64,000 nucleotides of DNA from an uncultured Pseudomonadales bacterium (GTDB taxonomy: Bacteria; Patescibacteriota; Microgenomatia; UBA1400; PJMF01). Location of the stretch: NCBI GenBank assembly GCA_964437755.1, contig CAYTIA010000002.1:34107-98106 (forward strand), in the 5' to 3' direction. How positions within the stretch are numbered: the first letter of the stretch is position 1; each line of letters opens with the position of its first letter. The position numbers and the translations under genes are program-made. This document shows, piece after piece, positions 758 to 59,243 of this stretch. A model generated the notes under the pieces. It made no database searches. It had not been told where the DNA came from and was given only the letters and a program-made list of their open reading frames with translations.

Positions 758-2845
758 TTAGTTTGAAACTATTCCTAGTACAAGATTGTGTTGATCTAGA
801 TAGCGTTCAATTTCTAGATGATTGTCGTCATCGTGATGGTGCTGGCTTCGAATGTAGTTGGGCTTGGTAGCCTCAATCAAGAACTCTCCCTTCTTCAAGT
901 TATAACTAAAACGCCCGTTTTTGTCGGTTAAGACAGCTACTATTTTCCCCTTAATAACTTTGTTATTCTCTTCACTTGATTCAATGCTTGTTAATCGTAC
1001 TAGAGCATCTTGTACTGGTTGTCCTTTCTCATCTATTACCAAGCCCTTAATATTGGCAAATATCTTGCTCCACAACAAAAGTATCAAGCCGTACAAAACA
1101 TACAAAAAAATTAAGATTTTATTAAGATTTGTAGGCCAAAACACAACTACACAAATTATGACTAGAGTATTGATCAGGGTGGTCCAGTTTTTAAAGATGG
1201 CCACCTTATTTATCCAAATCTGAACCTTTGTTAAAAATGACCACGCTATTTTGGAGTAACCTTTTTTATCTCTTTTATCTTTTGGCACTCTCATTTCTGC
1301 CACTAGGTCATTGTCTGTTGGAATAATCAGTGACAAGTTGTCATTTTGCAATGAGACTTCTGTTAGATCTGCTTTGTAGAAATCTTCTAAAACGACCTTT
1401 TCTTTCCTATCAACTTTTGTGGGGTATTTATAATCCGGATGAGTGATTGCTATTTTATACATTTTGGCTGGCAAGTTAGTGTGAGTGTAAAGTCCAAACC
1501 TATTTGTGACAACTTGCTCATAATACGGGGGAAATCCATCTGGTTCTGATTGACTGATGGCGGTTACCGTAGCAAATGGCACTCCCAATACATCTTCAAC
1601 TCCCTCAAGCGAATAGTAATCTTGATCAAATACCCAACCCTCGTTCTCTTTCCAAGGTACTAGACCTAGTGCTACCCAGATTCTCCAAAGTTGTTTGAAA
1701 GATAGTAGGCCAGCACTACCCACTCTACGCATTAATAATAAAGTTGAGATTACAATTGGCCAGCTAGCAAGTATTAAAACAAGCCAGGGACCAAGAAAGC
1801 TCATCAATTTAGAAAACCAGGGTCTTGATGCGATTTTCCAGATGGGGGTGGGAGTGAGACGCTTTATTACCTCATGTACAATTTCTTTTGGAGGTGTGTA
1901 GGGAATCTCTATCGGAGGTTTTTCTGGAGGTCTTGTTGGCATACCTGGGGCAACCGTTGGCTCTCCTGGTTTTGGAGTTGGCGAGGCCTCGCCAACAGGA
2001 GGAATGATGATTACGGCAGAAGGAATAACAATTTTTACTCCCTCAAGTACGCTAATATGTCTGGCTTGATCGATAATCACAAAATTAAGAGTAATAATGG
2101 TATCTCTGGGTAAAATAGGTAGGGTATAACTCCAGTTTCCCTGAGAATCTATCCAGATCTCTTTGTTAATATCGTCCTGTCCTGGAATCTTAATAGTCAG
2201 CTGAACTAAACTGTTAGCTTCTCCTTTAGCAATTAACTTTGGTTCATTGGCCGAGATCTGAATTGGATCATCGGGAATGGTATTGGTATCTTGAGCTGAG
2301 ATCGAAGTGACAACATCTCCAATCTGGATTAAAACAAATGAAGGGGCTACGGAATCAACAGTAAAGCTCCAAGTGGCTGAACTAGTGGTTAAGCCAACCG
2401 CATCAACAGCCACGATTTTCCAAGTATTATTACCCTGAGGAACATCAAACTTTACATCAAGGTAGTAATAGCCAAGCTCTGAGTTATAACTAAGTTTATA
2501 TTGAGAAAAACTACCACTATTATCTAAATTATCCAAAACAAGCTTGCCGTTTAAATAAAACTGATAATGCGACATCAGCACGTTATCGGTTGATTCTCGC
2601 CACACAAACTGAGGTCGGTTGGTGTTAAGCAACTCTCCATTTTCTGGCGAAATTAGAATTGGTGCTGTTGGAGGAACAATGTCGGGCATGGTGGCACTAA
2701 CGGTTGCTCCGTGAGTGATTGGTGGAGGGAGAGTTTGTGCTTGTGCCGATGGGTGAAAAAATACTGCTCCAAATATAGTCACAATTATCGCTAAAACGAG
2801 TCTAACTGAAGGTGGGCAGGTCAACATTTTCATCAAGTCTATCAT
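758..2845 (-). CDS. Large membrane/surface protein: N-terminal signal peptide, Ig/fibronectin-like region, Pro-rich linker, polytopic TM segments, C-terminal CarboxypepD_reg-like beta-sandwich
   Basis: 695-aa ORF. N-terminal hydrophobic signal (LVLAIIVTIFGAVFF..AQAQT). Pro-rich stretch (PPVGEASPTPKPGEPTVAPGMPTRPPEKPP). Several predicted TM helices. C-terminal LVIDEKGQPVQDALVRL...NGRFSY segment resembles the carboxypeptidase regulatory-like domain. Confidence 0.55.
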   Translation of the reverse strand: MIDLMKMLTCPPSVRLVLAIIVTIFGAVFFHPSAQAQTLPPPITHGATVSATMPDIVPPTAPILISPENGELLNTNRPQFVWRESTDNVLMSHYQFYLNGKLVLDNLDNSGSFSQYKLSYNSELGYYYLDVKFDVPQGNNTWKIVAVDAVGLTTSSATWSFTVDSVAPSFVLIQIGDVVTSISAQDTNTIPDDPIQISANEPKLIAKGEANSLVQLTIKIPGQDDINKEIWIDSQGNWSYTLPILPRDTIITLNFVIIDQARHISVLEGVKIVIPSAVIIIPPVGEASPTPKPGEPTVAPGMPTRPPEKPPIEIPYTPPKEIVHEVIKRLTPTPIWKIASRPWFSKLMSFLGPWLVLILASWPIVISTLLLMRRVGSAGLLSFKQLWRIWVALGLVPWKENEGWVFDQDYYSLEGVEDVLGVPFATVTAISQSEPDGFPPYYEQVVTNRFGLYTHTNLPAKMYKIAITHPDYKYPTKVDRKEKVVLEDFYKADLTEVSLQNDNLSLIIPTDNDLVAEMRVPKDKRDKKGYSKIAWSFLTKVQIWINKVAIFKNWTTLINTLVIICVVVFWPTNLNKILIFLYVLYGLILLLWSKIFANIKGLVIDEKGQPVQDALVRLTSIESSEENNKVIKGKIVAVLTDKNGRFSYNLKKGEFLIEATKPNYIRSQHHHDDDNHLEIERYLDQHNLVLGIVSN

Positions 2846-3949: not shown

Positions 3950-5407
3950 TTAAAAAGTAGCTGTAGCTGTATAAGTAATATAGTTGTAGTAGTCACCGGC
4001 GGCGGTTAGGGCATCGGCGATGATTCTGTAACAGGCATAAATACTGTCGCTATTGGTTGGAGTACTTGGCCCAAACACATCAACGGGATCTTGTGCTGAT
4101 TCAAAATCAGCAAAGTGTCTGGCCACGAAAGTTCCGCCAACATTGTATTCAAAAGCAGGATTATCGCTGTCAATGTTTTCGATTGAGTAACCAAAACCAG
4201 TTTCTGTTTCGACGGTCCAATCTTGTTCTACGGTATGAGACATGCTGGCTACATTCGCATCCCATATACACTCAAAAGCATCAACTCCAGCGTTATAAGT
4301 ATCGCCGGCGCAGACTTCACCATTTCTACCAAGTTGATCATTGGCAATGGCAGTAACGACGGCACCGCTTAGAGCATTAGTGGTAACTTTTAGTTCTTGA
4401 GATCCATATTTGAAATCACCGGTGTTAATTTCCCCAAAAGGAACGCTGCTGCCGGTGGTAGTAATATCGGTTGTTTCACCGCATCTGGTTGCTCCGGCGG
4501 TTTCACCAATAATTTCAAAAGTGAGTGAGGGAACAACAGTAGCGCTGACGCGAACTGCTTCAATGGCGCCAATTTTTACAGTAGTTGAGTCAATTACTGC
4601 GTTGTCAGAAGTTCTTACATTGCGAACAACAACCTCATAAGTATCAGCAATACCTGTAATATGACCTGCCGCTGGGGCTGGATTGATGATGGTAGGAATA
4701 CCGATGGTGATGGTTCCACCGGTGCCACCCGTTGTGTAAGGGCAAGTATAAACGTGCCAATAACCCGTGGGAAGAATGCCTCCAGTTTGACCAGCAGAAG
4801 CAGTTGGGGTGCCAAAGGTATGAGAACCAGTTTTTTCGCAGGATACGGTTGGAGAGCCAGTACCAAAATCAAAATAAGCCTGATCAGGGATGCCATCTGC
4901 ACTAGTAGCACTAGTGCCAGTTGCTGGTACCAATACTTGAAAGTAACCTGCTGTAACATCTGTATTTGTGTCAAAAACTACCTCCAGAGCACTTGTTTCA
5001 GCAAGATAAAAAGTTTCATTGGTGGTAGCAATAGCAGAATCAATGGCAATGGTGTTAGTATCAACAACGTCAGCAATGGTTCTTGCTCCTGAAGTAGTAA
5101 AGGTTAGAGAGTCAGTAACTTTTAATGCATCTGTAATTTCTGTGTTGAGATTAACTGTGTAATCAGTAATTGCGGGTGAGTCAATAACTATATCCATAAT
5201 GGTATCTGACCCCGGAGTACCACTAACTCGTCCTCGATAAGAAACCCTTGAATTGCTCATTGTAACTGATACAGAAGTAAGGTTTGCTGCCTGTGGCTTG
5301 TTAAGATAGGCTAGCCAGGTTAATCCTACAACTAATAGAGCAAGTGATACGAGGCGAAAATAGAGGGGTTTGACTTCAGTCATGATGTTGTTAGTTAAAT
5401 AAAACAA
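3950..5407 (-). CDS. Secreted Thr/Gly/Ser-rich surface protein (hypothetical)
   Basis: 485 aa. N-terminal TM/signal (LVSLALLVVGLTWLAY). Very Thr/Gly/Ala/Ser-rich mature region with scattered Cys pairs. No recognisable catalytic motifs. Confidence 0.5.
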   Translation of the reverse strand: MFYLTNNIMTEVKPLYFRLVSLALLVVGLTWLAYLNKPQAANLTSVSVTMSNSRVSYRGRVSGTPGSDTIMDIVIDSPAITDYTVNLNTEITDALKVTDSLTFTTSGARTIADVVDTNTIAIDSAIATTNETFYLAETSALEVVFDTNTDVTAGYFQVLVPATGTSATSADGIPDQAYFDFGTGSPTVSCEKTGSHTFGTPTASAGQTGGILPTGYWHVYTCPYTTGGTGGTITIGIPTIINPAPAAGHITGIADTYEVVVRNVRTSDNAVIDSTTVKIGAIEAVRVSATVVPSLTFEIIGETAGATRCGETTDITTTGSSVPFGEINTGDFKYGSQELKVTTNALSGAVVTAIANDQLGRNGEVCAGDTYNAGVDAFECIWDANVASMSHTVEQDWTVETETGFGYSIENIDSDNPAFEYNVGGTFVARHFADFESAQDPVDVFGPSTPTNSDSIYACYRIIADALTAAGDYYNYITYTATATF

Positions 5408-10940: not shown

Positions 10941-11189
10941 ATGCAAAAAACAATGTCAATTACTAGTCAAGGTCAAATAACTATTCCTCTTGAGATTCGT
11001 CAAGCTCTTAATATTACTCAAGCCACAAAAGCTTTAGTGCAGTTAGATGGTGAAAAAATTGTGATAACACCACGACTAAGTTTTGAACAACTTGCTGGTA
11101 GCTTAGCCTCGAATATTAAGTTGTCAGATGACCAATTAAGAAAAGCAAGAAGATCATTTGAAAGTGATTGGGCTAAAGATGAAAAATGA
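10941..11189 (+). CDS. AbrB/MazE (SpoVT-AbrB fold) antitoxin, VapB-like
   Basis: 82 aa. GQITIPLEIRQALNI..DGEKIVITP matches the swapped-hairpin AbrB/MazE DNA-binding motif. 11-nt overlap with the downstream PIN gene. Confidence 0.75.
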   Translation: MQKTMSITSQGQITIPLEIRQALNITQATKALVQLDGEKIVITPRLSFEQLAGSLASNIKLSDDQLRKARRSFESDWAKDEK

Positions 11190-11580
11190 TAATCTTTTTT
11201 TTCTGGATACAAATGTGATTATTCGTTTTTTGGTAAAGGATCACATTGAGCATTTTGAACAAGCCAAAATTTGGTTTAACCAAGCAAAAGAAGGGAAGAT
11301 AAAAATGATAATAGTACCGATAGTGGTGGCTGAATGTTGTTATCTACTTGAATCATTTTATAAAGTTCCTAAAGAATCTATTGCCCAAAAGATGCAAGTT
11401 TTGTTAAGTCAGCGCTGGATCCAAGTTGAGAATAGAAAAGAAATAAATAACCTCTGGCAGCATTATCTTAAAGGATTGCATTTTGTGGATAGTTTTTTAT
11501 TGAGTTCTTCTCTTATTAATCAAGCAAAGGTGCTGAGTTTTGATAAAAAGATTGTAAAACATTGTTTACAGCTGAATTGA
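11179..11580 (+). CDS. vapC: PIN-domain ribonuclease toxin (VapC)
   Basis: ORF track starts at TTG 11158; the likely start is ATG 11179 (MKNDNLFFLDTNVII). The four PIN acidic residues are present (LDTNV, VAEC, FVDSF, SFDKK). Confidence 0.8.
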   Translation: MKNDNLFFLDTNVIIRFLVKDHIEHFEQAKIWFNQAKEGKIKMIIVPIVVAECCYLLESFYKVPKESIAQKMQVLLSQRWIQVENRKEINNLWQHYLKGLHFVDSFLLSSSLINQAKVLSFDKKIVKHCLQLN

Positions 11581-11777
11581 GTAATCTTCCAGGTTTCCAA
11601 ATTATTGTGATATTTTGATATATTTTATTGTTCAATAACTAGAAAATAGTTTAATAAATAGATATTTTTTACTTTGCAAAGCAGGGCAAAAAAATATCAA
11701 AATTTGAACACATTTAGTTAACAAAAATACAAAATGATCAGCCTGCCTAGCTCATCAGCTTCCCGCCGCATAAAAAG

Positions 11778-12182
11778 ATGGATGATCTGGACAAAAAAGT
11801 GGTTGGTGAGCAAGGTGTCTTCCAGATACGGTCTTTTTGCAATTTTGCAAAAAAGTGGGCAAATAACTTAAAACATAGCTTTGTTAAAAAATGGGTGGGT
11901 TTTTGCAAGCAGATAACCAGACTTTTAAAATCATTACTTACTCCCTCACGTTCTAAGATTCATACACACACGGTGGCATTATCGGTAGGAGCATTGATGT
12001 TTGTGGCAGGAACTTATTATGGTATAGCTCATTACTTGATTCCGGCTATTCGCGCTTCTTTTGAGTCTACTCATCAAATGCCCTATGACTCACAGTTACC
12101 AGACGGTAACTCTACCGCTTTTAATCGAGGGACGCTTGGAGAACTGGCTGTAACTAATTTTGGAAAAGCTCGGTTTTTTTGA
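11778..12182 (+). CDS. Hypothetical small membrane protein
   Basis: 134-aa ORF with one hydrophobic segment. No homology recognised. Confidence 0.3.
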   Translation: MDDLDKKVVGEQGVFQIRSFCNFAKKWANNLKHSFVKKWVGFCKQITRLLKSLLTPSRSKIHTHTVALSVGALMFVAGTYYGIAHYLIPAIRASFESTHQMPYDSQLPDGNSTAFNRGTLGELAVTNFGKARFF

Positions 12183-12224
12183 CATAATTTGCTCTCTTTA
12201 TAGAAAAATACTATAATACGCCAT

Positions 12225-13505
12225 ATGAAAACTAAAACTCTTCGCATTCTAACATCAGCCTTTTCTCTATCAGCTTTGGTTTTTGGATACCTAACTTTTT
12301 CAAATAATGATATTGTTAATGTTCATGGCTCAGACAGCTGTCTTTATGACATAACTGGCTATGTTACTCAAACGGGTTCACTTAGAGCTGGCTATGCTAA
12401 CTGCAATGGAAATTCTTGGTGTATTAAATTAGATGGAATTCCGGCAGAGTATAACAACTCTGGTTGTTATGTTGCCGAACTTTATACCGATCCAATTCAA
12501 TCGTGCGGAAACCAAGAAACTCACCTTAGAAAAAGAGTGAGTATTACCAATGGTGGTGAAATTTGTTTTGATAGTGCCGATTGGGGAACAGACTGCCGAG
12601 CTCAACTTGATATTCGCCGAGATATATCGGGTGCTCCTGCTGGAAATGTGAAAACTTATCTAATTGAGTGTGGCCAAAAGCCATCTCCAACACCAACGAG
12701 AACTCCAACCCCGACATTTACACCAACGCCCACTCTAACTCCAACTGCGACTCCTACAAGTACTCCAGGTCCTACCTCAACACCAACACCAACATCTACG
12801 CCTAGACCAACCATTCCAACTCATTATAGTTCATGTGATAGTTTGAGAGTGGTAAGTGGGAATAACTCTCTAGTTCCTGCAAAAATAACTTTTGAAACGA
12901 GAGCCAGTGATTCCGATGGAGATATTCAGTTATATAGATATTATTTTGGAGATGGAAAATCCCTTGAAACTACACAAAATGTTGTAGAACACACATACGA
13001 AGTATCTGGAACCTTTTATGCAAGAGTATTTATTAAGGATTCAAAAGGTAACTGGAAAACAAGTCAGGCTTGTACAACTAATTTAAAGGTTGAGTCAGCT
13101 CCGATTGAAACTCATAAGTCGGGTTGTAGCGATCTTTTTATTCTATCAGGTCAACACAATCAAGCTCCTACAGATGCCACTTTCCAAGTAACTGGTTTTG
13201 ATAACAAAGGAACAATTCAGCGTTACCGATTAGTTTACAGCACTAATGAACAACAAGAGCAAAGCTCAAATTTTTTCACTAAACATTTTTCTCAGCCAGG
13301 CTCGTATGAGATTAGGGCATATATTCAAGACTCTCAAGGAAACTGGAAGGGTGGAGATGGAAGCTGTCGCAAAACTCTTTACGTTAACACCAAGCCAATT
13401 GTGGTCCAACCAAAAACAGGAACTCCACTAATGGTAACACTAGGCAGTATCGGTTCTGGTGTGCTAGGATTAGGCTTAAGAACAATTAAGAAGCGTTGGT
13501 TTTAG
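12225..13505 (+). CDS. Surface protein with Cys-rich N-domain, Pro/Thr linker, two PKD domains and a C-terminal sortase sorting signal (QPKTG plus hydrophobic stretch plus basic tail)
   Basis: Signal peptide. PT-repeat linker (PSPTPTRTPTPTFTPTPTLTPTATPTSTPGPTSTPTPTSTPRPT). Two repeats matching the PKD pattern (YRYYFGDGKS...HTYEVSGTFYARVFIKDSKGNW; RYRLVYSTNEQ..SYEIRAYIQDSQGNW). C-terminus VQPKTGTPLMVTLGSIGSGVLGLGLRTIKKRWF. Sortase gene is immediately downstream. Confidence 0.7.
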   Translation: MKTKTLRILTSAFSLSALVFGYLTFSNNDIVNVHGSDSCLYDITGYVTQTGSLRAGYANCNGNSWCIKLDGIPAEYNNSGCYVAELYTDPIQSCGNQETHLRKRVSITNGGEICFDSADWGTDCRAQLDIRRDISGAPAGNVKTYLIECGQKPSPTPTRTPTPTFTPTPTLTPTATPTSTPGPTSTPTPTSTPRPTIPTHYSSCDSLRVVSGNNSLVPAKITFETRASDSDGDIQLYRYYFGDGKSLETTQNVVEHTYEVSGTFYARVFIKDSKGNWKTSQACTTNLKVESAPIETHKSGCSDLFILSGQHNQAPTDATFQVTGFDNKGTIQRYRLVYSTNEQQEQSSNFFTKHFSQPGSYEIRAYIQDSQGNWKGGDGSCRKTLYVNTKPIVVQPKTGTPLMVTLGSIGSGVLGLGLRTIKKRWF

Positions 13506-13533
13506 TCATTCTTAATGATCCTTCATTAACTCT

Positions 13534-14199
13534 ATGAAAATTGCCTGGCCAAAAGCAAAGAGGCTAATCTCTTTATATTTATTACCGTTTTTAATCTTTC
13601 TTCTTTTTCTAATCTTCATTAGATGGGTTGTAACTACCGTTGTTCCTGTTGCTTTGGTTGAGGTTAAGTATCAATATCATCACACTCTCACCACAGTGTT
13701 TAATGTTCCCGACCTGAAATCGCTAATTATTCCGGATTTTAGCTGGATGACGTGGGAAGGGCATAGCAAGCATCAAGAATATGGAATCAGAATCCCAGCG
13801 ATTTTTTTGGACGAACCCGTTATTTTTAATGTAGACCCCAATGATTCAGGTCAGTATAAACAAGCTCTAAAAGAAGGTATTGCCCATGCCTCAAGTACTT
13901 CATTTCCTGATAATGCTGGACTTGGTTACTATTTTGCTCATTCCTCAATCGGAGAGGTTAATTTAAGAAACAACGCCATTTTTTATCTTTTGGGCAAGTT
14001 GGTAGAAGGTGACAAAATATTTATTTGGCATCATGGCGAGAAGTTCGAGTACGAGGTATATGGGCAACTGATAGTTGAACCAAATGATGTGGAGTTTTTG
14101 TATCAAGAGTATGATGGAGAAAAGATAGTTCTTCAAACTTGTTGGCCCCCTGGTAGTGACAGACAAAGATTGCTAGTTTTTGCTCAAAGAACAAAATAG
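13534..14199 (+). CDS. Sortase family transpeptidase
   Basis: 221 aa. N-terminal TM. Conserved sortase elements: IRIPAIFLDEPV strand, catalytic His region (GIAHASSTSFPDNAGLGYYFAHSS), catalytic Cys in LQTCWP and Arg in DRQRLLVFA. Confidence 0.75.
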   Translation: MKIAWPKAKRLISLYLLPFLIFLLFLIFIRWVVTTVVPVALVEVKYQYHHTLTTVFNVPDLKSLIIPDFSWMTWEGHSKHQEYGIRIPAIFLDEPVIFNVDPNDSGQYKQALKEGIAHASSTSFPDNAGLGYYFAHSSIGEVNLRNNAIFYLLGKLVEGDKIFIWHHGEKFEYEVYGQLIVEPNDVEFLYQEYDGEKIVLQTCWPPGSDRQRLLVFAQRTK

Positions 14200-14245
14200 A
14201 GCATAACAATGGTTTCTTTTCAGTTTCTTTATTTATCTTAGGGTA

Positions 14246-14995
14246 ATGTCCCTAATAGATTCAATTTCCAAACAAAAGAGTACAAATAGTCAAAAATGGC
14301 GAACACTAGTTGCCGTCATATTTTTTTTATGTGGTGTTTGTGCAGTACTGCTAGGATCACATCATTTATCGAGTGTAATTGAAGTCCCAAATTGTATAAA
14401 TTTTGTAGATGAACAACTTGAAGAAAATATAGTTCAAACTAGAAATGAAAACGAAGTTGATCAAATTGTTAATAGCTTTGGAAAAATTCAAGTTGAGATA
14501 CAGGGAGCGGTGAAAAATCCAGGAGCTTATTGGTTAAAGTCTGATACAAGGTTAGGGGAATTAATAGAGGTAGCAGGAGGATTAACAGAAAATGCCGATC
14601 AAGAATATTTTAAAAAACATTTAAATATGTCTCAAAAACTATCTGATGAGCAAAAAATAACCATTCCTACCAAAGAAAGTAAAGAACTAGCTGAGTTGCT
14701 TAGGGATTACTGTGTCAACTTAAAACAGATAGAGGAAAATGTGAAGATTGAAAACGATGCCCAAGACAATCAAAGTGAAACAGAAGAAGCTGGAATAGAA
14801 ACCAGCAGTAATCAAAACTGTATATCCATTAATTATGCTAGTAGCACCGATCTGCAAAAATTAACTGGAGTGGGAGAAAAAACTGCAGAACTAATAATTG
14901 AGAGCAGACCGTACTCAAAAGTGTCTGAGTTGTTAAATGTGAAAGGGATTGGAGAGGCGACACTGGAAAAAATAGAGAAAGAGATTTGTTTATAA
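14246..14995 (+). CDS. comEA: Competence protein ComEA (SLBB domain plus helix-hairpin-helix DNA-binding domain)
   Basis: N-terminal TM. SLBB-like segment (IQVEIQGAVKNPGAYWLKSDTRLGELIEVAGGL). C-terminal tandem HhH (ASSTDLQKLTGVGEKTAELIIESRPYSKVSELLNVKGIGEATLEKI). Confidence 0.8.
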   Translation: MSLIDSISKQKSTNSQKWRTLVAVIFFLCGVCAVLLGSHHLSSVIEVPNCINFVDEQLEENIVQTRNENEVDQIVNSFGKIQVEIQGAVKNPGAYWLKSDTRLGELIEVAGGLTENADQEYFKKHLNMSQKLSDEQKITIPTKESKELAELLRDYCVNLKQIEENVKIENDAQDNQSETEEAGIETSSNQNCISINYASSTDLQKLTGVGEKTAELIIESRPYSKVSELLNVKGIGEATLEKIEKEICL

Positions 14996-15309
14996 AAAAA
15001 GTTATGGGTTGTAATTATAGGTCGAACTAGACAAAGTAAATTGGCATTTGAAGTAAACAAATTAATGCACAGAAGAGGTAAAAAATCAAAAAATATGTTG
15101 TCATTTCTAACAAAACAATATAAACATATAGAAATATAGCGGTAGAAAGATAGACAAACTATTAACGCAGATATCATCTTTAGTATATATAAATATATTA
15201 AGATATGTTTATAGTTAGGCAAAATATACGAGTAATATATCTCTACCGAAGCTAAATAATCAGGTTGTCTAAAATGTACTATTAATTCACTTGTTAACAG
15301 ATTACTCGA

Positions 15310-16527
15310 GTGATTGATAAAATATTATTTAACATTTTTTATAGAATTTTTATTGGAATTATGCGAAATTTCTATAAATTAGCACTCTCACTAGTACCTC
15401 TGCTAATCATTTTTTTGCTCGTTATTTGTCAATGCAATCAAACAATCTTTGCTTTTATCATTATTAAAGCTTCGTTAAATAATTGGTATGACTTTTTTAG
15501 TAGTAAAGCTTTGTCTGTTATCAGCTACTTGACAAGGAGTGGTGAGTCTGCAGTTGGTAGATTGGGAGCTCAAATCGCCATAGGGTCAGTTTTTGGTGTA
15601 CAAATTGGACAAAACAGCTCATTAAGTCTTAAATTAAAAACTATTGGGATGTCACACTTATGGTCAGCTTCAGGTTTGAGTCTTTATTTGTTTATTCAGG
15701 TGATCAACTCTTTTTTGTCCTTGTTTAGCTACGTTTCTTTTAATAAAAAGACGTTTTTATCTATTCTCAGCTTGTTGTTCTTCTGGTGCGTCGGTCCAAA
15801 ATCTGCTTCTTTGCAAAGATCGTTTCTTTCGATTCTATTATTCTTACTTTTTTCTAAATATTTTGGTTTTCAATTATCTAAATTACGTTTATTGGTCTAC
15901 ATTTTAATCATTATTATTTTGCTTCAACCAACACTTATTAATTCTCTTTCCTTGTGGTTTTCTGTAGGAGCTGTTTTTGGAGTGATTTGTCTCAATTCAT
16001 TTTTATCTAGTTTATTTAAAATGGACCAAACCACTTTCTTTTCTAATTCTTCATTTTTGTCAAAAATTCTTTTTCGAATTAAAAAAATGCTACGTGTATT
16101 TTTTAAAAATGTTGTTTTATTTTTATCTTTACAACTGGGAATGCTCCCCTTAATATCTTTAACTTGGGGGGAGATTAGTTTAATGAGTCTTTTACTAAAT
16201 ATTTTAATGGCTGGAGTAGCGCCAAATGTTTTTTATTTAGGCTTGATTTGGTGTGTCTGGATTGTTTTTTACATTCTTTGGCTACGCTCCTTTGCTTTTG
16301 CAAAGGTACTTTCTTCACTATTAATGTTTCCTCTCGAGTGGCTTTTCGAGATATCTGATCAATTTGTACAAATTGATCAGATGGCGTTAAGAATTCCTGA
16401 ATTTTCAACTATAGCAACAATTGCTTGGTACACAGCAATATTCTTAATCAATCAGTTTTTTGTTTATAGGCGAAAAACTGAGATTTCTGCCCAATATACT
16501 TTAAATAATATTTTTTCTTTTTGGTGA
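15310..16527 (+). CDS. comEC: ComEC/Rec2 N-terminal membrane channel portion, ending in an in-frame TGA
   Basis: 405 aa and highly polytopic, matching the ComEC competence/DUF4131 region. Terminates at TGA 16525-16527. The downstream MBL-domain ORF is in the same frame. Confidence 0.7.
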   Translation: MIDKILFNIFYRIFIGIMRNFYKLALSLVPLLIIFLLVICQCNQTIFAFIIIKASLNNWYDFFSSKALSVISYLTRSGESAVGRLGAQIAIGSVFGVQIGQNSSLSLKLKTIGMSHLWSASGLSLYLFIQVINSFLSLFSYVSFNKKTFLSILSLLFFWCVGPKSASLQRSFLSILLFLLFSKYFGFQLSKLRLLVYILIIIILLQPTLINSLSLWFSVGAVFGVICLNSFLSSLFKMDQTTFFSNSSFLSKILFRIKKMLRVFFKNVVLFLSLQLGMLPLISLTWGEISLMSLLLNILMAGVAPNVFYLGLIWCVWIVFYILWLRSFAFAKVLSSLLMFPLEWLFEISDQFVQIDQMALRIPEFSTIATIAWYTAIFLINQFFVYRRKTEISAQYTLNNIFSFW

Positions 16528-16530
16528 ATC

Positions 16531-17448
16531 TTGATGTTCAAACAAGTAATTCTTATATGTACTATATTCACTTTAGGACTATGTATCCAACTTCTTAGGC
16601 TTTGGCCATCAAAAAACTTAGAGTTAGTTTTTTGCGATGTTGGTCAAGGTGATGCGATATTGATCAAGTATGGGTTTTGGCAGATGCTAATTGATACTGG
16701 ACCAAATGATCAAGTACTAGAGTGTCTTCGACAAAATATGTCATTTTGGGATAAAACTCTTGAGGTTATTCTAATTACTCACACTGATGCTGATCACATT
16801 GGCGGATTTGCAAGCGTGCTATCAAATTATCAAACAAACGATATCTTTTTAGCTGACACAGGAACCAGTACAAGCTACAAAAACATGCTTAATGAGCTTC
16901 TTGCTGAGAAGTTTAGATATACTCAGATTAAAACCGCTTTTTTAGGCCAAATGATTGCTTTTTCCCCTGGTGGACAACTGTTATTTTTGGGACCAGACGA
17001 AGGACAGTTGCCACCAATAAATGCCAGCGCAAACAAATTTTCCGAAACCTTATTATCGGACGTAACGCTACTAGAATCTAAGAATAATGATGATCCAAAT
17101 GAACGATCAATTATCTTGTTATTAAAATATATTGATTTTGAGTTTCTGCTAATGGGAGATGCATCTTCTAAAAATGAGTTAGCACTTGTGAAAAGAGGAC
17201 TGATTGAAAAGGTAGAGGGTATAAAAGTGGGGCATCATGGGTCAAATACTAGTACGCACGTTGACTTGATTGAACAATCTCAACCCGAAATAGCCGTGAT
17301 TAGCTGCGGCTACAACAACAAGTTTGGTCACCCTTCTCTTGATGTGATTAAGATATTAAATCAAAATCAAGTAAAAATACTTAGAACTGATGAGCTTGGA
17401 ACAATTAAGCTCATTACCGATGGAACTGCATACTGGATTGTTGATTAA
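16531..17448 (+). CDS. comEC: ComEC C-terminal metallo-beta-lactamase domain, separate ORF in the same frame as the N-terminal part
   Basis: VFCDVGQGDAILIKYGFWQMLIDTGPND and HTDADHIGG metal-binding motifs typical of the ComEC MBL nuclease domain. ATG at 16534 is preceded by GGTGA (SD-like, embedding the TGA). Confidence 0.7.
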   Translation: MMFKQVILICTIFTLGLCIQLLRLWPSKNLELVFCDVGQGDAILIKYGFWQMLIDTGPNDQVLECLRQNMSFWDKTLEVILITHTDADHIGGFASVLSNYQTNDIFLADTGTSTSYKNMLNELLAEKFRYTQIKTAFLGQMIAFSPGGQLLFLGPDEGQLPPINASANKFSETLLSDVTLLESKNNDDPNERSIILLLKYIDFEFLLMGDASSKNELALVKRGLIEKVEGIKVGHHGSNTSTHVDLIEQSQPEIAVISCGYNNKFGHPSLDVIKILNQNQVKILRTDELGTIKLITDGTAYWIVD

Positions 17449-28032: not shown

Positions 28033-29412
28033 TTATGTTGAGAGGATTGTAACTAGTTTTTCATCTAAAAAATGTTTATTGTTCCAATCTTTCATGAGTT
28101 GGCCAGCAGAGTTACCTTCAGGGAGATTTTTTGCAATCTCTTGTAGAACGATGGGTAATTGTTGATTGCTATCAAGGTACTTATGAATTGATAATTTCAG
28201 AGCAGACTGAACCTCAAGATCAGTACCAACACAATCTAAGGGCTTGTTAATTGACGGATCAGCCAAGGCTCGGAAGGTGGGTATAAGAGAATTATCATTA
28301 AATAGATTGTGGCTAAATATTTTGGTGGTTAATAACTCCTTTTCAACAAACGGAAATAACATCAAAAAAACAAAGGCGCACTTTGCACAATGACCACACC
28401 AAGCATCTTGTTTTTGGCCAACGTTGCAACTTCTAAAATCAAGTAAAGAACTATGATATTGAGCAAACTTTGCAGCTATTTGCAACTCATTAAGAGGCCT
28501 TAAAAAGGACAGGTATTCGGCTTGTTTGGCTCTGCTTCCTAAGTATTGATTTGCATACTCTCTAAAACTGGTTTCAAACTCGAAACTTTTTGACCATTGG
28601 TGGTTAATCTCAATGTCTTTATATCTTAAGTTTGGTTGATTGGCAGAGCTTTCATTGGCTAATAGAATTTGCTGATGACCTTCTAGATGAGCCACAAGAG
28701 TAGATAAAAAAGCAAGATAAGCACTAAAAGGAGTGTGCCCATTAAGATAGCCGTGAATATTAAGTTTGAGTAGAGTGGGGCAGATAGTTCTGTGAACCAC
28801 TATCTGTTTTTTAGAGGTACTACTTGAGGCAAGTTTTGATGCTGCTGGTGAGGCTGGTTCAAGTACTAGGGTATGATAAGTTTCACTGGCTTGAGCTATT
28901 AAGTTAAGAGTTAATCCAGAGTCTTTTCCTCCTCCAACTGGAATTAAGTAAGGGGTGTGGTAATGGTCTGGCGCTAGAGGTGTTGGCTGAGCGGTGGGTG
29001 ACTTGGCAGTTGACGATATATTTAAAAAATTGGGTTGGTTAAAATCAATCTGGTTAGTGTAAAAAAACTCACCCAGCCCATGAATAAAAAGGTTGTGCCA
29101 CCAGCTAACTTGGTATTCATCAAGGTAGCCAGATTCAATAATTATTTCTTGAGGACAAGCGGCCTTCCAATAACTGGGCAATTCTGCAAGTCCGAGTTGG
29201 AAAATAAGTGAGTCTAGAAAGCTTTTTGGTATGTTGCTAAGCTGGCTGGGATCAATTCCGGAAACTATAAAAGATGGGGAAAAGATTATGTTGGGTTCAA
29301 GCAGAAAGGTATAGTTAACTTTAAGCTGAATGTTTTTATTAGGATTCAATTCATAATCAAAACTTTGATACCTAAGTGCGGAATGTTTTTGTCGCAGACT
29401 GTCAATTGTCAT
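28033..29412 (-). CDS. PP-loop ATP pyrophosphatase superfamily protein, QueC-like core (SGGKDS-type loop plus C-x10-C-x2-C-x2-C zinc site) with unique about 150-aa N-terminal domain
   Basis: 459 aa. PP-loop VGGGKDSGL at about residue 160. Cys cluster CNVGQKQDAWCGHCAKC near residue 330-345, resembling the QueC zinc site. The N-terminal 150 aa is not recognised. Confidence 0.5.
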   Translation of the reverse strand: MTIDSLRQKHSALRYQSFDYELNPNKNIQLKVNYTFLLEPNIIFSPSFIVSGIDPSQLSNIPKSFLDSLIFQLGLAELPSYWKAACPQEIIIESGYLDEYQVSWWHNLFIHGLGEFFYTNQIDFNQPNFLNISSTAKSPTAQPTPLAPDHYHTPYLIPVGGGKDSGLTLNLIAQASETYHTLVLEPASPAASKLASSSTSKKQIVVHRTICPTLLKLNIHGYLNGHTPFSAYLAFLSTLVAHLEGHQQILLANESSANQPNLRYKDIEINHQWSKSFEFETSFREYANQYLGSRAKQAEYLSFLRPLNELQIAAKFAQYHSSLLDFRSCNVGQKQDAWCGHCAKCAFVFLMLFPFVEKELLTTKIFSHNLFNDNSLIPTFRALADPSINKPLDCVGTDLEVQSALKLSIHKYLDSNQQLPIVLQEIAKNLPEGNSAGQLMKDWNNKHFLDEKLVTILST

Positions 29413-31301: not shown

Positions 31302-32846
31302 GTGGATGATAATTTCTCTATGATGAATACAGAGTCTATCAATAGGCATGATCATGAGGCATTATTTAATCACAGAGAGATGTTGCGCAAAATACAAGCT
31401 GAACTTGTTTTGTTGACTGGTGAACCAGAGATAAGAAAAATTCCTCTTTCATTACAAGCTTTAACCAACGTTTTTCTTGAAGTTTTTAAAATAGATGGTG
31501 TGGTTGGGTTAGTAAGAAAATTAGCCCCTTATCTCGAGGCAACTGAAGCTAATCAGAGTTTAGTTGATAGGCTTAGAACTATGCAAGAAAATGGAGGTTC
31601 TCCTTGGGGGATATATTCAGTGCTTAATCTTTTGGGAATTCCCAGGGAAGATGAAAATAAACTTGCTGCCATAAGATACTCGTTGTTTATGGTTATTGAA
31701 GAAAATGTTTCGGCAGAGTTAATTGGCCAAGGTTTTTTTAAGAGCATGATGAATGGTTTTCCTTGGGAAAATGAAGATTTTATTTATTTTGATCCCAGAA
31801 TGGATCCAGTAAAAAAATACCTGCTTTCAAATCGAATTAAATCTTTACCAACCGTAACTAGCCAAGAAGACTCTTTCTTAGTGAACAGTTGCGAAATTCC
31901 TGCTGTGATCAATTTGGGGGAAATAAGCTATGGTGAAAATCATAGTCCTATTTTTTCTCAAGAGCAAAAAGATTTTCTGTATAATCAAATCTCTTTTAGA
32001 CCATTCATAATAGTGAGGGTAACAACTGGGGGGAATCCTGAAAAAACAATGGTATTAATGATAGCTAATCATCAATATTTAGATGGGGTTCCCGCTGGAC
32101 ACATGTTTGCTCAAACCCTACAGTTTATTAGTGATCAACTGGGGCAAAAAATCAAGCCCGCAACATTATTAGAAAGTGACCTTATTCTTGGAGATCAAGT
32201 TGAGAGGGCGACTTTAAAAAACCCTGATCAATATTTGGTTAACTCTCTGCAATTACCTGACGAGCTTGTTGCTGAGATTAACCATCTTTATTCTGAGATA
32301 TCTCAAACAGAGTGTGTGGTTTCTTATAATGACTTCTTTCAGTTATTGATGTTGGCAACTTATGGAGTAAATGGGACAACTGTTAAGGGAGGAGTTTTAG
32401 GATTTCGTCTTGACCCTTTTAAACAACTTGATCATTATGATGTTGGAGATGCATCAAAATTGTTAGAGGCCTTACTGGCTAATGATATGAAGGCAATAGC
32501 TCCCTATCTTGTAGATTACAAAGGTCAAAGAAGACTATCTTTGTATAGAGCTGAAGCTAGTAATATGGCGATCTTGGGTAAGTTGAGTAAGTTACCAGCT
32601 GCGCTAGCGGTTAGATTAAATGAGGTTGCACGATTGTTGGGAATAGATAAAGGTATTAGTGGTCAAATAATGACATCAATTATCCCTGACAAAATTGGGG
32701 CAATACATCTATCTGGTTTTGGTGGTCCGGCCGTTACTCCTTTTCAGGACTGTGGATTTACTGCTAGCATTAAACTCAGCGCTGATAGAAGATCTGCTAA
32801 GAGTATTGTGATTAGAGAAAAAATGAGAAAAAAGAAAAAGAAATAA
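31302..32846 (+). CDS. Hypothetical protein with C-terminal poly-Lys tail
   Basis: 514-aa ORF. No motif recognised. Ends REKMRKKKKK. Confidence 0.45.
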   Translation: MDDNFSMMNTESINRHDHEALFNHREMLRKIQAELVLLTGEPEIRKIPLSLQALTNVFLEVFKIDGVVGLVRKLAPYLEATEANQSLVDRLRTMQENGGSPWGIYSVLNLLGIPREDENKLAAIRYSLFMVIEENVSAELIGQGFFKSMMNGFPWENEDFIYFDPRMDPVKKYLLSNRIKSLPTVTSQEDSFLVNSCEIPAVINLGEISYGENHSPIFSQEQKDFLYNQISFRPFIIVRVTTGGNPEKTMVLMIANHQYLDGVPAGHMFAQTLQFISDQLGQKIKPATLLESDLILGDQVERATLKNPDQYLVNSLQLPDELVAEINHLYSEISQTECVVSYNDFFQLLMLATYGVNGTTVKGGVLGFRLDPFKQLDHYDVGDASKLLEALLANDMKAIAPYLVDYKGQRRLSLYRAEASNMAILGKLSKLPAALAVRLNEVARLLGIDKGISGQIMTSIIPDKIGAIHLSGFGGPAVTPFQDCGFTASIKLSADRRSAKSIVIREKMRKKKKK

Positions 32847-33416: not shown

Positions 33417-33990
33417 TAACATCAAAAACTCACTGCCGCAGTTTATTTATCAAAAGCAGATCAATGGAAAAGATTTTTTATTTCGTTTTCCTGAACAAGG
33501 CGATACACTTCAAATGGTTGAGTACTCCAATGAGTTTAATGCTGAGAGCGAGTTTACCTTATTTCCAGAAGAAAGAATTAATTCTACAGATGCTCAGGTG
33601 TATTTAGCTAGAATCATTGGCAAGATTGAGCGACATGAATCAATATATCTTTTTGTTTTTTGCAAAAATGTTGACAAATTGAGGCTTGCGGGGAGAATTA
33701 ACATCAATCTTGAGCCAGGATTACAACAACATCTGGGTGAACTGGGGATTAGCATTCGAGAAGAGTATCGAAATATCGGTTTGGGGACGACATTAATCGA
33801 GCTGGCGATTGAAGTTGCTAAACGGTGGCTTTCTGGATTAGAAATAATTCAATTAACTACTTTTTCTACAAACCAGAGGGCGCTTCATCTCTATCAAAAA
33901 TTAGGTTTTAAAGAGTTTGGCCGGCTACCCAAAGGAGTAAAAAGAAGTGATCAGTATCAGGATTTTGTGTATATGTGGAGGGAGATTTAA
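33409..33990 (+). CDS. GNAT family N-acetyltransferase, tandem paralog
   Basis: 193 aa. RNIGLGTTLIE and LHLYQKLGFKEFGRLPKG. 8-nt overlap with upstream GNAT. Confidence 0.7.
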   Translation: MNNNIKNSLPQFIYQKQINGKDFLFRFPEQGDTLQMVEYSNEFNAESEFTLFPEERINSTDAQVYLARIIGKIERHESIYLFVFCKNVDKLRLAGRININLEPGLQQHLGELGISIREEYRNIGLGTTLIELAIEVAKRWLSGLEIIQLTTFSTNQRALHLYQKLGFKEFGRLPKGVKRSDQYQDFVYMWREI

Positions 33991-33994
33991 AGAG

Positions 33995-47920: not shown

Positions 47921-48148
47921 ATGATTAAGATAACCACAAAAAAACTTTTAAGTGAGATCACGCTGTTTTTAATTGATCAACTTGAAAAAAATGAGATATC
48001 TATAGGTAGAGTTAAGAAAATATCTCGACAGATTTTGGCTGTTTTTCCAGATGAAAAGTGTGATAAAGATGAATTTCCAGTTGAGGTATTATCGCAGTTA
48101 ATAGAAATACCTGAAATTGATACCTTTTTTCAACAAAAGAAATGGTAG
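47921..48148 (+). CDS. Hypothetical small protein, translationally coupled to giant gene
   Basis: 75 aa. Stop overlaps start of 48142 ORF (ATGGTAG). Confidence 0.35.
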   Translation: MIKITTKKLLSEITLFLIDQLEKNEISIGRVKKISRQILAVFPDEKCDKDEFPVEVLSQLIEIPEIDTFFQQKKW

Positions 48149-59039: not shown

Positions 59040-59243
59040 ATGGCATCAAAGAAAAAAGGTCCAAGACAAACAGTTGGCTTAGTATGTTCTGTTTGCAAAA
59101 AATTTAATTATGTAACTGAGTACAACAAAAATAATGAGGTACTCAAAAAACAAAAAGATGGAGAGGGAACCTTCCCCATTATGAAGTTTTGCCCAAAGTG
59201 CAACAAGCAAACTGAGCACAAGATGGCTAAAAAACTCAAGTAG
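59040..59243 (+). CDS. rpmG: 50S ribosomal protein L33
   Basis: 67 aa. Zinc ribbon CSVCKK...CPKCNKQTEH. Lys-rich. Confidence 0.85.
   Translation: MASKKKGPRQTVGLVCSVCKKFNYVTEYNKNNEVLKKQKDGEGTFPIMKFCPKCNKQTEHKMAKKLK

What the first reader, a model, noticed from the sequence alone, without database searches (positions are those of the whole stretch)
12225..14199. Sortase with adjacent PKD-domain substrate bearing a non-canonical QPKTG sorting signal, next to competence genes
The 426-aa protein has a Cys-rich N-domain, a long PT-repeat linker, two PKD domains and a C-terminus (VQPKTG-TPLMVTLGSIGSGVLGLGL-RTIKKRWF) with the tripartite motif/hydrophobic/basic layout of a cell-wall sorting signal. 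Position 1 of the motif is Gln rather than Leu. The next gene is a sortase with intact His/Cys/Arg catalytic residues. comEA and comEC follow, so the substrate may belong to the DNA-uptake or surface machinery.
Basis: partly seen in the sequence, partly recalled or inferred. Interest (0 to 1): 0.5.

Follow-up and report, generated by a model that had tools for sequence, protein, structure and literature searches.

The report
Dedicated sortase with Gln-first sorting signal
An uncultured ultra-small (CPR/Microgenomates) bacterium carries a two-gene cassette, a surface protein ending in an unusual QPxTG anchoring signal followed by its own sortase; the pairing and the Gln held in every related genome sampled, pointing to an undescribed sortase specificity, while the neighbouring DNA-uptake genes are there by coincidence.

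Summary
ORF 12225-13505 encodes a secreted protein: Cys-rich head, PT linker, two PKD-type domains, then QPKTG, a 19-residue hydrophobic stretch and RTIKKRWF. ORF 13534-14199 is a sortase whose His136/Cys203/Arg212 are invariant in 92 homologs.

The Gln is not an oddity of this gene. All 111 non-redundant family members (down to 33% identity) have QPxTG. No other xPxTG occurs in their tails.

Starting independently from the sortase, 41 of 41 orthologous loci with upstream sequence have this PKD protein upstream on the same strand. In 37 of them the gap is about 210 nt or less. Flanking genes differ from locus to locus.

A second CPR sortase clade lacks the PKD partner. Five of its 36 loci sit beside DUF11 proteins with canonical LPxTG. 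Position 1 therefore tracks sortase phylogeny.

The enzyme is nearest class C in sequence and fold, but reaches no curated class threshold. It has no C-terminal anchor, and its substrate is not pilin-like.

comEA/comEC adjoin only in the two 91-92% identical relatives (0 of 41 other species), so the competence link is unsupported.

Best reading: a dedicated, Gln-specific wall-anchoring system displaying a head-swapping adhesin-like protein. No such motif appears in the searched literature. All of this is bioinformatic inference.

The parts
12225..13505 (+). Substrate gene (426 aa): signal peptide, Cys-rich head, PT linker, two PKD-type domains, QPKTG sorting signal
   Evidence: ORF. PKD hits. 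AF2 model. About 111 non-redundant homologs, all CPR where a source names the organism.
12330..12674 (+). Cys-rich head domain (about residues 36-150), fold and function unknown. It is a rare variant within the family.
   Evidence: No Pfam family and no PDB relative. AF2 confidence is low. Within the family it is shared only with P0001. It also occurs on proteins that lack the sorting signal: P0047, P0048, P0050.
12675..12818 (+). Pro/Thr-rich linker (about residues 151-198)
   Evidence: Sequence. Predicted disordered, pLDDT about 50-60.
12819..13394 (+). Two tandem PKD-type beta-sandwich stalk domains, each bracketed by conserved Cys (C204/C283 and C301/C381)
   Evidence: pLDDT of 95 or more. 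Nearly invariant Cys columns. Foldseek matches tandem Ig/FN3/PKD arrays, and no CnaA/CnaB pilins appear in the top 50.
13389..13430 (+). Extended recognition motif T-K-P-I-V-V-Q-P-K-T-G-T-P-L. Family consensus T-x-P-[LI]-T-x-Q-P-x-T-G-T-P-T. Core QPKTG is 13407-13421, and the predicted scissile bond is between Thr398 and Gly399.
   Evidence: Position-wise conservation. QPxTG in 111 of 111 members. Gln codons CAA 25 / CAG 17. The cleavage site is inferred by analogy with LPXT|G.
13422..13502 (+). Hydrophobic segment (TPLMVTLGSIGSGVLGLGL) and basic tail (RTIKKRWF) of the sorting signal
   Evidence: Sequence. Predicted helix 402-425. A Gly inside this segment, 17 residues C-terminal to the Gln (residue 412), is 96% conserved.
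13534..14199 (+). Dedicated sortase (221 aa): N-terminal membrane anchor and an extracellular catalytic domain from about residue 82 to 221. H136 is nt 13939-13941, C203 is 14140-14142, R212 is 14167-14169.
   Evidence: Pfam and NCBIfam. Invariant H136, C203 and R212 in 92 sequences. hhalign puts H136 on SrtA H120 and C203 on C184. phmmer against class C aligns TC and Arg. AF2 pLDDT 84.2. Foldseek top hits are class C sortases.
14246..17448 (+). comEA (14246-14995) and the split comEC (15310-16527, 16531-17448). Listed only as neighbours that are not part of the system.
   Evidence: Domain hits. The adjacency is kept only in L001 and L010, in 0 of 41 other species, and in none of L002-L009.

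Best explanation
This is a two-gene cassette specific to Microgenomates-type CPR bacteria. It encodes a secreted surface protein and the sortase dedicated to it.

Proposed mechanism:
1. The protein is exported by Sec.
2. It is held in the membrane by its C-terminal hydrophobic segment and basic tail.
3. The co-transcribed, N-terminally anchored sortase recognises the extended signal T-x-P-[LI]-T-x-Q-P-x-T-G.
4. Cys203 attacks the Thr-Gly bond, forming an acyl-enzyme.
5. The protein is transferred to an amine of the peptidoglycan precursor.
6. The result is a wall-anchored stalk of two disulfide-braced PKD domains, a PT linker, and a variable Cys-rich head that probably binds a ligand or a host surface.

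The Gln at position 1, in place of Leu, would keep this substrate separate from the second CPR sortase system, which sits beside LPxTG/DUF11 proteins.

Shown here: gene pair, domains, catalytic residues, fold, motif invariance, conserved adjacency, and co-variation of motif with sortase clade.

Inferred: cleavage at T|G, specificity for Gln, peptidoglycan as acceptor, and the adhesin role of the head.
For: 1. Signal invariance. QPxTG is present in 111 of 111 non-redundant homologs. Membership was defined by PKD homology, down to 33% identity. No other xPxTG occurs in their tails, and the x position varies freely. Both Gln codons are used, so selection acts on the amino acid.

2. Conserved pairing. 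Starting from the substrate, six independent loci have the sortase immediately downstream with unrelated flanks. Starting from the sortase in GTDB genomes, 41 of 41 orthologous loci with upstream sequence have the PKD/QPxTG protein upstream on the same strand. In 37 of 41 the gap is about 210 nt or less, and some genes may overlap.

3. Specificity co-variation. Sortase scores are bimodal: 174 bits or more against 138 bits or less. None of the 36 low-scoring loci has the PKD partner. Five of them sit beside DUF11 proteins with LPKTG, LPETG or LPPTG. An NJ tree puts the PKD-paired Q-type sortases (plus L074) and the LPxTG-adjacent ones on opposite sides of the split, with one QPDTG locus (L082) at the base of the other side. 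One genome (JACREN01) has both sortase types (L022 and L085).

4. A competent enzyme. H136, C203 and R212 are invariant in 92 sequences. They align to the SrtA and class C catalytic residues. The model is a confident sortase fold, with core rmsd about 2.4 A to class C.

5. Topology. The sortase has an N-terminal basic then hydrophobic anchor. The substrate has a hydrophobic segment and a basic tail.

6. A wall is plausible. MurD-type ligase, MreB and a PBP-like protein are encoded in the same window.

7. One signal-bearing ORF per locus across 189 kb.
Against: - There is no biochemical evidence. Cleavage, Gln specificity and the acceptor are all inferred.
- I could not scan a whole genome, so the claim of a single substrate rests on local context only. 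L074 shows a small non-PKD QPQTG protein beside a Q-clade sortase. L082 has a QPDTG tail beside a sortase at the base of the other clade. The motif therefore has at least occasional other carriers.
- The sortase is nearest to pilus-polymerising class C enzymes.
- No obvious Gln-binding residue was identified. The Q-clade-specific positions (E94, I116, G131, Y133, S138, I198) are only candidates.
- The tree is NJ, midpoint-rooted, without support values or an outgroup.
- Only the best 80 of 570 or more GTDB loci were examined.
Confidence: 0.72

Rival explanations
1. The sortase is a class C-like polymerase. It joins copies of the PKD protein head-to-tail through a conserved lysine into a CPR-specific covalent fibre or pilus, rather than simply anchoring monomers to the wall.
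For: - Nearest sequence and fold relatives are pilus-specific class C sortases.
- The sortase gene lies next to its substrate, as in pilus islands.
- A conserved P-[DNE]-F segment (residues 67-69) lies about where the class C lid sits, in a low-confidence region of the model.
- K328, in the 'YDNKG' loop of the second PKD domain, is at least 90% conserved.
Against: - All 92 family members score about 60-65 bits against the 160-bit class C cut-off.
- There is no C-terminal membrane anchor; the protein ends two residues after the last strand.
- There is no DP[FWY] lid motif.
- The stalk matches PKD/FN3/Ig arrays, and no CnaA/CnaB pilins appear in the top 50.
- I saw no YPK pilin motif in the listed sequences.
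- Each PKD domain carries a conserved Cys near its start and end, which suggests disulfide bracing rather than the isopeptide bonds of pilins.
- K328 sits in the membrane-proximal domain, a poor position for head-to-tail extension.
- Each locus has a single substrate gene, with no tip or base pilins.
Confidence: 0.12
2. The QPxTG protein and its sortase belong functionally to the competence (ComEA/ComEC) DNA-uptake machinery encoded just downstream.
For: All are on the same strand, with comEA starting 47 nt after the sortase stop. The arrangement is kept in the two closest relatives, L001 and L010.
Against: - Those two relatives are 91-92% identical, so shared synteny there carries little weight.
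- In 41 other species' loci and in L002-L009, comEA/comEC are not within about 7-10 kb of the pair.
- The flanks there are unrelated housekeeping genes: MnmA, Ddl/Mur ligase, GyrA, SIMPL and others.
Confidence: 0.03
3. The QPxTG tail is just a membrane anchor that is never cleaved. Alternatively, it is cleaved by the other (LPxTG-type) CPR sortase, and the adjacent sortase acts on different proteins.
For: No biochemical data exist. One genome carries both sortase types. Sortases with relaxed position-1 specificity are known (general knowledge).
Against: - A plain anchor would not keep Q, P, T and G invariant in 111 of 111 sequences while the x position and the flanks vary.
- The strict 41 of 41 adjacency and the co-variation of motif with sortase clade are hard to explain if the adjacent enzyme is not the processing enzyme.
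Confidence: 0.06

Closest known systems
Class B sortase with IsdC (S. aureus and B. anthracis isd locus; motif NPQTN / (N/S/P)PXTG)
   Same: A sortase encoded next to the substrate it serves. The substrate carries a polar, amide-type residue in place of Leu at position 1, which keeps it apart from the housekeeping LPXTG pathway (PMC8225981).
   Different: - The enzyme here is not class B. No class B model hit at E of 0.1 or less, and no class B structure is in the Foldseek top 50.
- Position 1 is Gln, not Asn, Ser or Pro.
- The substrate is a PKD-stalk protein, not a NEAT haem binder.
- The host is a CPR bacterium.
Class C (pilus-assembly) sortases, e.g. GBS SrtC1 (4g1j, 3tbe) and A. oris SrtC1 (2xwg)
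   Same: Best sequence match (phmmer E 5e-8), best NCBIfam match and best fold match (Foldseek E about 1e-13, core rmsd about 2.4 A over about 141 columns). Arg lies at Cys+9. The gene is adjacent to its substrate.
   Different: - 61 bits against the 160-bit class cut-off, and the same shortfall for all 92 homologs.
- No C-terminal TM anchor.
- No DP[FWY] lid motif.
- A 4-5 residue insertion after the catalytic His.
- The substrate is not pilin-like and its motif starts with Gln.
Class GN ('marine') sortase TIGR03784 with its single adjacent target (own knowledge of the NCBIfam/TIGRFAMs description)
   Same: The same logic: one sortase and one dedicated neighbouring target with a non-canonical motif.
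   Different: Only 20 bits against a 158-bit cut-off. The lineage (Proteobacteria), the target family and the motif are all different.
Class E sortases (LAXTG)
   Same: A precedent for a whole sortase clade that has shifted one position of the pentapeptide (PMC8225981; PMC5148588 appears in the listing but was not read).
   Different: The shift there is at position 2 (Ala), and the enzymes are housekeeping with many substrates. Here the class E model scores 23 bits against 160.
Second CPR sortase clade paired with DUF11 LPxTG proteins (L053, L063, L067, L069, L070)
   Same: Same phyla, the same catalytic signature (AHS...QTCWPPG...R), and 33-48% identity to the window's sortase.
   Different: - No PKD partner in 0 of 36 loci.
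- Where there is an adjacent substrate, it has canonical LPxTG and a DUF11 domain.
- It differs from the Q clade at E94, I116, G131, Y133, S138 and I198.

Membership tests
Sortase superfamily (PF04203 / TIGR01076) | Profile score above the curated threshold | tested here: met
   PF04203 68.7 bits against 26.6. TIGR01076 49.8 against 39.35.
Sortase superfamily (PF04203 / TIGR01076) | His-Cys-Arg catalytic triad | tested here: met
   H136, C203 and R212 are invariant in 92 sequences. C203 and R212 align with the class C TC and Arg. The spatial geometry of the triad could not be inspected.
Sortase superfamily (PF04203 / TIGR01076) | Sortase beta-barrel fold | tested here: met
   AF2 pLDDT 84.2. 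Foldseek gave 139 PDB hits at E of 0.001 or less, and all of the top 50 are sortases.
Class C sortase (NF033745) | Score at or above the curated class cut-off (160 bits) | tested here: not met
   61.4 bits. The best E-value among all 92 homologs is 4e-18, about 65 bits.
Class C sortase (NF033745) | C-terminal transmembrane anchor | tested here: not met
   The protein ends at residue 221, two residues after the last beta-strand (211-219). The only long helix is N-terminal, residues 5-55.
Class C sortase (NF033745) | Lid with a DP[F/W/Y] motif covering the active site | tested here: inconclusive
   There is no DP[FWY]. A conserved P67-[DNE]-F69 lies at roughly the lid position, in a segment with pLDDT 56-70.
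Class C sortase (NF033745) | Substrates are pilins (CnaA/CnaB folds, pilin-motif Lys) | tested here: not met
   The stalk consists of PKD-type domains. The Foldseek top 50 has no pilins. I saw no YPK motif in the listed sequences. Conserved Cys residues bracket each domain.
Class B sortase | Class B profile or fold match | tested here: not met
   No class B model hit at E of 0.1 or less. No class B structure is in the Foldseek top 50.
Class E / D / F / GN sortases | Score at or above the curated class cut-offs | tested here: not met
   Class D 38.8 against 165. Class E 23 against 160. Class GN 20.2 against 158. Class F did not hit the window protein.
LPXTG-type cell-wall sorting signal | Tripartite layout: pentapeptide, about 15-20 hydrophobic residues, then a basic tail at the very C-terminus | tested here: met
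   QPKTG, 19 hydrophobic residues, then RTIKKRWF. Across the family, 25-47 residues (median 29) follow the TG.
LPXTG-type cell-wall sorting signal | Leu at position 1 | tested here: not met
   Gln in 111 of 111 family members. The review's table of class motifs lists L or N/S/P at this position, never Q.
LPXTG-type cell-wall sorting signal | Cleavage between Thr and Gly, and amide linkage to peptidoglycan | not testable with these tools
   This needs enzyme assays or mass spectrometry.
PKD domain proteins (PF18911 / PF00801) | Profile score above threshold | tested here: met
   PF18911 49.7 bits against 27. PF00801 48.8 against 23.5, with two stretches.

The most novel reading that the evidence does not exclude
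The Q-type enzymes form a new sortase class, widespread in Microgenomates. They would have a natural, strict specificity for Gln at position 1 that is orthogonal to LPXTG sortases. Their single client would be a head-swapping, wall-anchored adhesin that these host-dependent ultra-small bacteria use to attach to partner cells or substrates. A bolder variant is that the class C-like enzyme polymerises the PKD protein into a covalent fibre unlike any known Gram-positive pilus.
Probability: 0.5. Interest if true: 0.65.

Novelty: new variant of a known kind. Interest (0 to 1): 0.48.

Why it matters
Sortases and LPXTG-type signals are textbook. A sortase clade whose client always starts its motif with Gln appears in none of the papers I could search and not in the review's list of class motifs.

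Three consequences would follow if this holds:
- **CPR biology.** It would identify a conserved, covalently wall-anchored surface protein of Microgenomates. Its variable head is a natural candidate for host or substrate attachment, which remains a central unknown for these uncultured bacteria. A sortase family is already reported as near-ubiquitous in Microgenomates (PMC6744442), but without a named substrate or motif in the passage read.
- **Specificity.** The co-existence of a Q-type and an L-type sortase system in one phylum, and in at least one genome, gives a natural experiment on how position-1 specificity is encoded.
- **Protein engineering.** A naturally LPXTG-orthogonal sortase would be useful for dual-label sortase-mediated ligation.

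It also corrects the tempting inference that the pair belongs to the competence machinery.

Tried and rejected
- **Exact look-up of the window's sortase.** Not on record, so the source genome could not be recovered.
- **Tail-only profile search.** This was meant to find QPxTG signals on other protein families. It was rejected twice on parameters, then returned nothing scorable.
- **Generic regex finders for the motif.** These were noisy: they missed L019, L033 and L034, and mis-called the upstream TKPLT[SA] as the motif. I replaced them with inspection by eye and a direct count on homology-defined members.
- **HMMER's pairwise alignment to class C.** It put the class C catalytic His on E141. 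I rejected this in favour of H136, which is invariant and which aligns to SrtA H120 in a profile comparison.
- **Head domain.** No Pfam family, no PDB sequence relative, and a low-confidence AF2 model. Its function remains unknown.
- **PADLOC defence models.** No hit for the pair or for the upstream ORF.
- **Promoter and terminator scan.** Counts were not above the shuffled expectation. It was informative only in showing no terminator between the two genes.
- **Literature.** Searches for QPXTG, QPKTG and similar strings gave four unrelated papers. The CPR sortase papers that were opened mention a sortase but give no motif or substrate in the passages read.
- **Competence link.** Considered and rejected on synteny.
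Class E is rejected. A CPR-specific clade is supported.
Full report
**1. The observation**

They are 28 nt apart, with no terminator-like hairpin between them.

The first protein has these parts:
- a basic then hydrophobic N-terminus;
- a Cys-rich region, about residues 36-150;
- a Pro/Thr-rich linker;
- PKD-domain hits above threshold (PF18911 49.7 bits, PF00801 48.8 bits);
- a C-terminus reading ...TKPIVV-QPKTG-TPLMVTLGSIGSGVLGLGL-RTIKKRWF.

AlphaFold2, run with a 50-sequence alignment, gives two beta-sandwich domains at residues ~200-390 (pLDDT 95 or more) and a terminal helix at 402-425. The head is poorly modelled.

The second protein is a sortase (PF04203 68.7 bits; TIGR01076 49.8 bits against a cut-off of 39.35). 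comEA and a ComEC split into two ORFs follow it.

The QPKTG protein is the only true sorting-signal ORF in the 64-kb window. The one other hit to the loose pattern is not a signal.

**2. Is the Gln real or a one-off?**

A homology search with the substrate returned 46 CPR proteins with intact C-termini. Where a source names them, they are Pacebacteria, Woesebacteria or 'Patescibacteria'. They share the C-terminal half, and every one ends in QPxTG. More distant PKD proteins in the same search carry LPKTG or LPETG.

An exhaustive phmmer search of 1.84 billion representatives, using residues 199-426, added 31 further single-stretch, near-full-length members. These reach down to 33% identity and include 'headless' forms of about 260 aa. 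All have QPxTG.

Membership was defined by homology of the PKD region, not by the motif. On that basis, 111 of 111 non-redundant members have QPxTG in the last 70 residues. No other xPxTG occurs there.

- The x position is free: S 32, K 23, E 23, D 14, A 8, N 5, Q 4, T 1, G 1.
- Both Gln codons are used (CAA 25, CAG 17), so the constraint is on the amino acid.
- The conserved signal is longer than five residues: T-x-P-[LI]-T-x-Q-P-x-T-G-T-P-T, plus a 96%-conserved Gly inside the hydrophobic segment.
- The downstream T-P relaxes in the most distant members.

**3. Is the sortase adjacency meaningful?**

*Starting from the substrate.* Six independent loci (L001, L002, L003/4, L005/6, L007, L009) all have a sortase immediately downstream. 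Their flanks are unrelated: MnmA, Ddl/Mur ligase, GyrA, a Na/H exchanger and others.

*Starting from the sortase.* A scan of GTDB species genomes found 570 or more related loci, and the best 79 were kept. tblastn scores are bimodal: 43 loci score 174 bits or more, and 36 score 138 bits or less.
- Of the 43 high scorers, 41 have upstream sequence.
- All 41 have the PKD-family protein upstream on the same strand, with QPxTG.
- Three apparent exceptions were filter artefacts, resolved by eye.
- In 37 of the 41 the gap to the sortase is about 210 nt or less; some genes may overlap.
- None of the 36 low scorers has the PKD partner.

Across 189 kb of window plus the first nine loci there is exactly one signal-bearing ORF per locus.

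**4. Motif and enzyme co-vary**

Five of the 36 low-scoring CPR sortases sit next to DUF11-domain proteins, most about 200 aa, that end in LPKTG, LPETG or LPPTG.

A midpoint-rooted NJ tree of the catalytic domains splits into two groups. One holds the window's enzyme, all the PKD-paired ones and L074, which is paired with a small non-PKD QPQTG protein. The other holds all the LPxTG-adjacent ones. L082, which has a QPDTG tail at a contig edge, lies at the base of the second group.

One genome (JACREN01) contributes one sortase of each type (L022 and L085).

The two clades share the catalytic signature (AHS, QTCWPPG, Arg). They differ consistently at only six positions: E94, I116, G131, Y133, S138 and I198. 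Several of these flank the catalytic His and Cys strands. They are candidate specificity determinants, no more than that.

**5. Is the enzyme competent, and what class is it?**

H136, C203 and R212 are invariant in 92 homologs.

HMMER's pairwise alignments to class C structures align C203 and R212 (Cys+9) correctly, but put the class C 'TGH' His on E141. A profile-sequence comparison with S. aureus SrtA places H136 on His120 and C203 on Cys184, with a 4-residue insertion after the His. Because H136 is invariant and E141 is not, I take H136 as catalytic.

The AF2 model is confident (pLDDT 84.2). All of the Foldseek top 50 PDB hits are sortases. Class C comes first (E about 1e-13, core rmsd 2.3-2.5 A over about 141 columns), then D, E and A. 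Class B is absent.

No curated class model is satisfied, however. Class C scores 61 bits against a 160-bit cut-off, and all 92 homologs fall similarly short. Three further class C features fail or are unclear:
- There is a single N-terminal anchor and no C-terminal one.
- There is no DP[FWY] lid motif. A conserved P-[DNE]-F at 67-69 lies at about the lid position in a low-confidence segment. I could not inspect the coordinates, so this is left as inconclusive.
- The substrate's stalk matches generic Ig/FN3/PKD arrays, with no CnaA/CnaB pilins in the top 50. Each domain is bracketed by conserved Cys residues.

So the enzyme resembles class C but is not a member by any test I could apply.

**6. 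The competence link**

comEA/comEC follow the pair only in L001 and L010, which are 91-92% identical to the window. In the 41 other species' loci and in L002-L009 they are not within the 7-10 kb fetched. The adjacency is lineage-specific synteny, not a functional linkage.

**7. Mechanism proposed**

The steps are Sec export, retention by the hydrophobic and basic tail, recognition of the extended QPxTG signal by the co-transcribed sortase, and thioacyl formation at Thr398 by Cys203. The intermediate is then resolved by an amine of the wall precursor.

The window encodes a MurD-type ligase, MreB and a PBP-like protein. CPR bacteria are reported to make peptidoglycan (PMC7143001). The product would be a wall-anchored stalk carrying a variable head.

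The heads are modular:
- about 61 of ~80 fall in one cluster (the YTNLCGTG...VWYSGDC type);
- 14 fall in a second cluster;
- the window's head is shared only with its 92% relative within the family, and it also occurs on proteins that lack the signal.

No head type has a Pfam or PDB relative. That pattern fits a diversifying binding module, but this is inference.

The Gln would insulate this client from the LPxTG/DUF11 system.

*Shown:* anatomy, catalytic residues, fold, invariance, adjacency and co-variation.

*Inferred:* the scissile bond, Gln specificity, the acceptor and an adhesin role.

**8. Comparison with what is known**

A review's class table lists LPXTG (classes A, C, F), (N/S/P)PXTG (B), LPXTA (D) and LAXTG (E). 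Gln is not listed (PMC8225981).

Full-text searches for QPXTG and its variants found nothing relevant.

A sortase family is known to be near-ubiquitous in Microgenomates (PMC6744442), but the passage read does not name a substrate or motif.

- The closest functional analogue is SrtB-IsdC: a dedicated sortase next to its client, with an amide residue at position 1.
- The closest structural relatives are class C enzymes.
- The closest in logic is the one-sortase, one-target 'GN' system (own knowledge).

I rate this a new variant of a known kind.

**9. Limits**

- Everything here is bioinformatic.
- I could not scan a whole genome for other QPxTG proteins. The tail-only profile search failed. L074 and L082 show that the motif is not strictly confined to the PKD family.
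- Only the best 80 of 570 or more GTDB loci were seen.
- The tree has no support values or outgroup.

Noticed in passing
window 15310-16527 and 16531-17448: ComEC is encoded as two back-to-back ORFs separated by a single stop codon: the Competence membrane domain, then the MBL nuclease domain. The 92% relative L001 shows the same split (13189-14373 and 14450-15379). It therefore looks like a genuine split gene rather than a sequencing error.
   Followed up: partly
window 10941-11189 and 11158-11580: A MazE-type antitoxin and a PIN-domain toxin pair, with the two ORFs overlapping by 32 nt, lie directly downstream of leuS.
   Followed up: no
L001 1953-9945, compared with window 11580-12225: The close relative carries about 8 kb between the PIN gene and the PKD gene that the window lacks. 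The extra genes are AbiEii, a 1775-aa alpha-2-macroglobulin-like protein with an inserted Hint/intein domain, and a Memo-family protein. The window instead has a 134-aa membrane ORF (11778-12182) with no family match.
   Followed up: no
window 48142-53061 (+); also 31302-32846, 33947-35641, 46293-47840, 59108-60661, 28033-29412 and 3950-5407: A 1639-aa ORF and several ORFs of about 460-560 aa have no Pfam match at E of 1e-5 or less. This is uncharacterised, CPR-typical coding space.
   Followed up: no
L053 6048-6812 (-), L063 7542-8189 (-) and 5913-6632 (-), L067 4650-6281 (+), L069 5992-6633 (-), L070 6107-6724 (-): A second CPR sortase clade sits beside DUF11-domain proteins, most about 200 aa. 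Five of the six end in canonical LPxTG and one in TPATG. The two translated here (L053, L070) share an N-terminal 'VRC.QQYGG..C' motif. This may be a separate, possibly pilin-like, sortase system in Microgenomates.
   Followed up: partly
L074 259-645 and L082 1-210: Two QPxTG tails occur on proteins outside the PKD family. One is a 123-aa low-complexity protein (QPQTG) beside a Q-clade sortase. The other is a fragment at a contig edge (QPDTG) beside a sortase at the base of the other clade. The motif therefore has occasional other carriers.
   Followed up: partly
record titles of L010-L088: Many GTDB records holding these Microgenomates-type loci are titled 'uncultured Pseudomonadales' or 'uncultured Gammaproteobacteria', and one 'Vitreimonas sp.'. 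These titles look taxonomically wrong for genomes with this gene content.
   Followed up: no
window 758-2845 (-): A 695-aa protein with Big_13 and CarboxypepD_reg domains. It is probably another surface protein, and it has no sorting signal.
   Followed up: no
P0223-P0365: The stalk domains are 25-38% identical to the repeats of giant multi-PKD proteins of about 420-4700 aa (most over 1000 aa), which match in 4-36 separate stretches. The two-domain stalk may derive from such repeat arrays.
   Followed up: no
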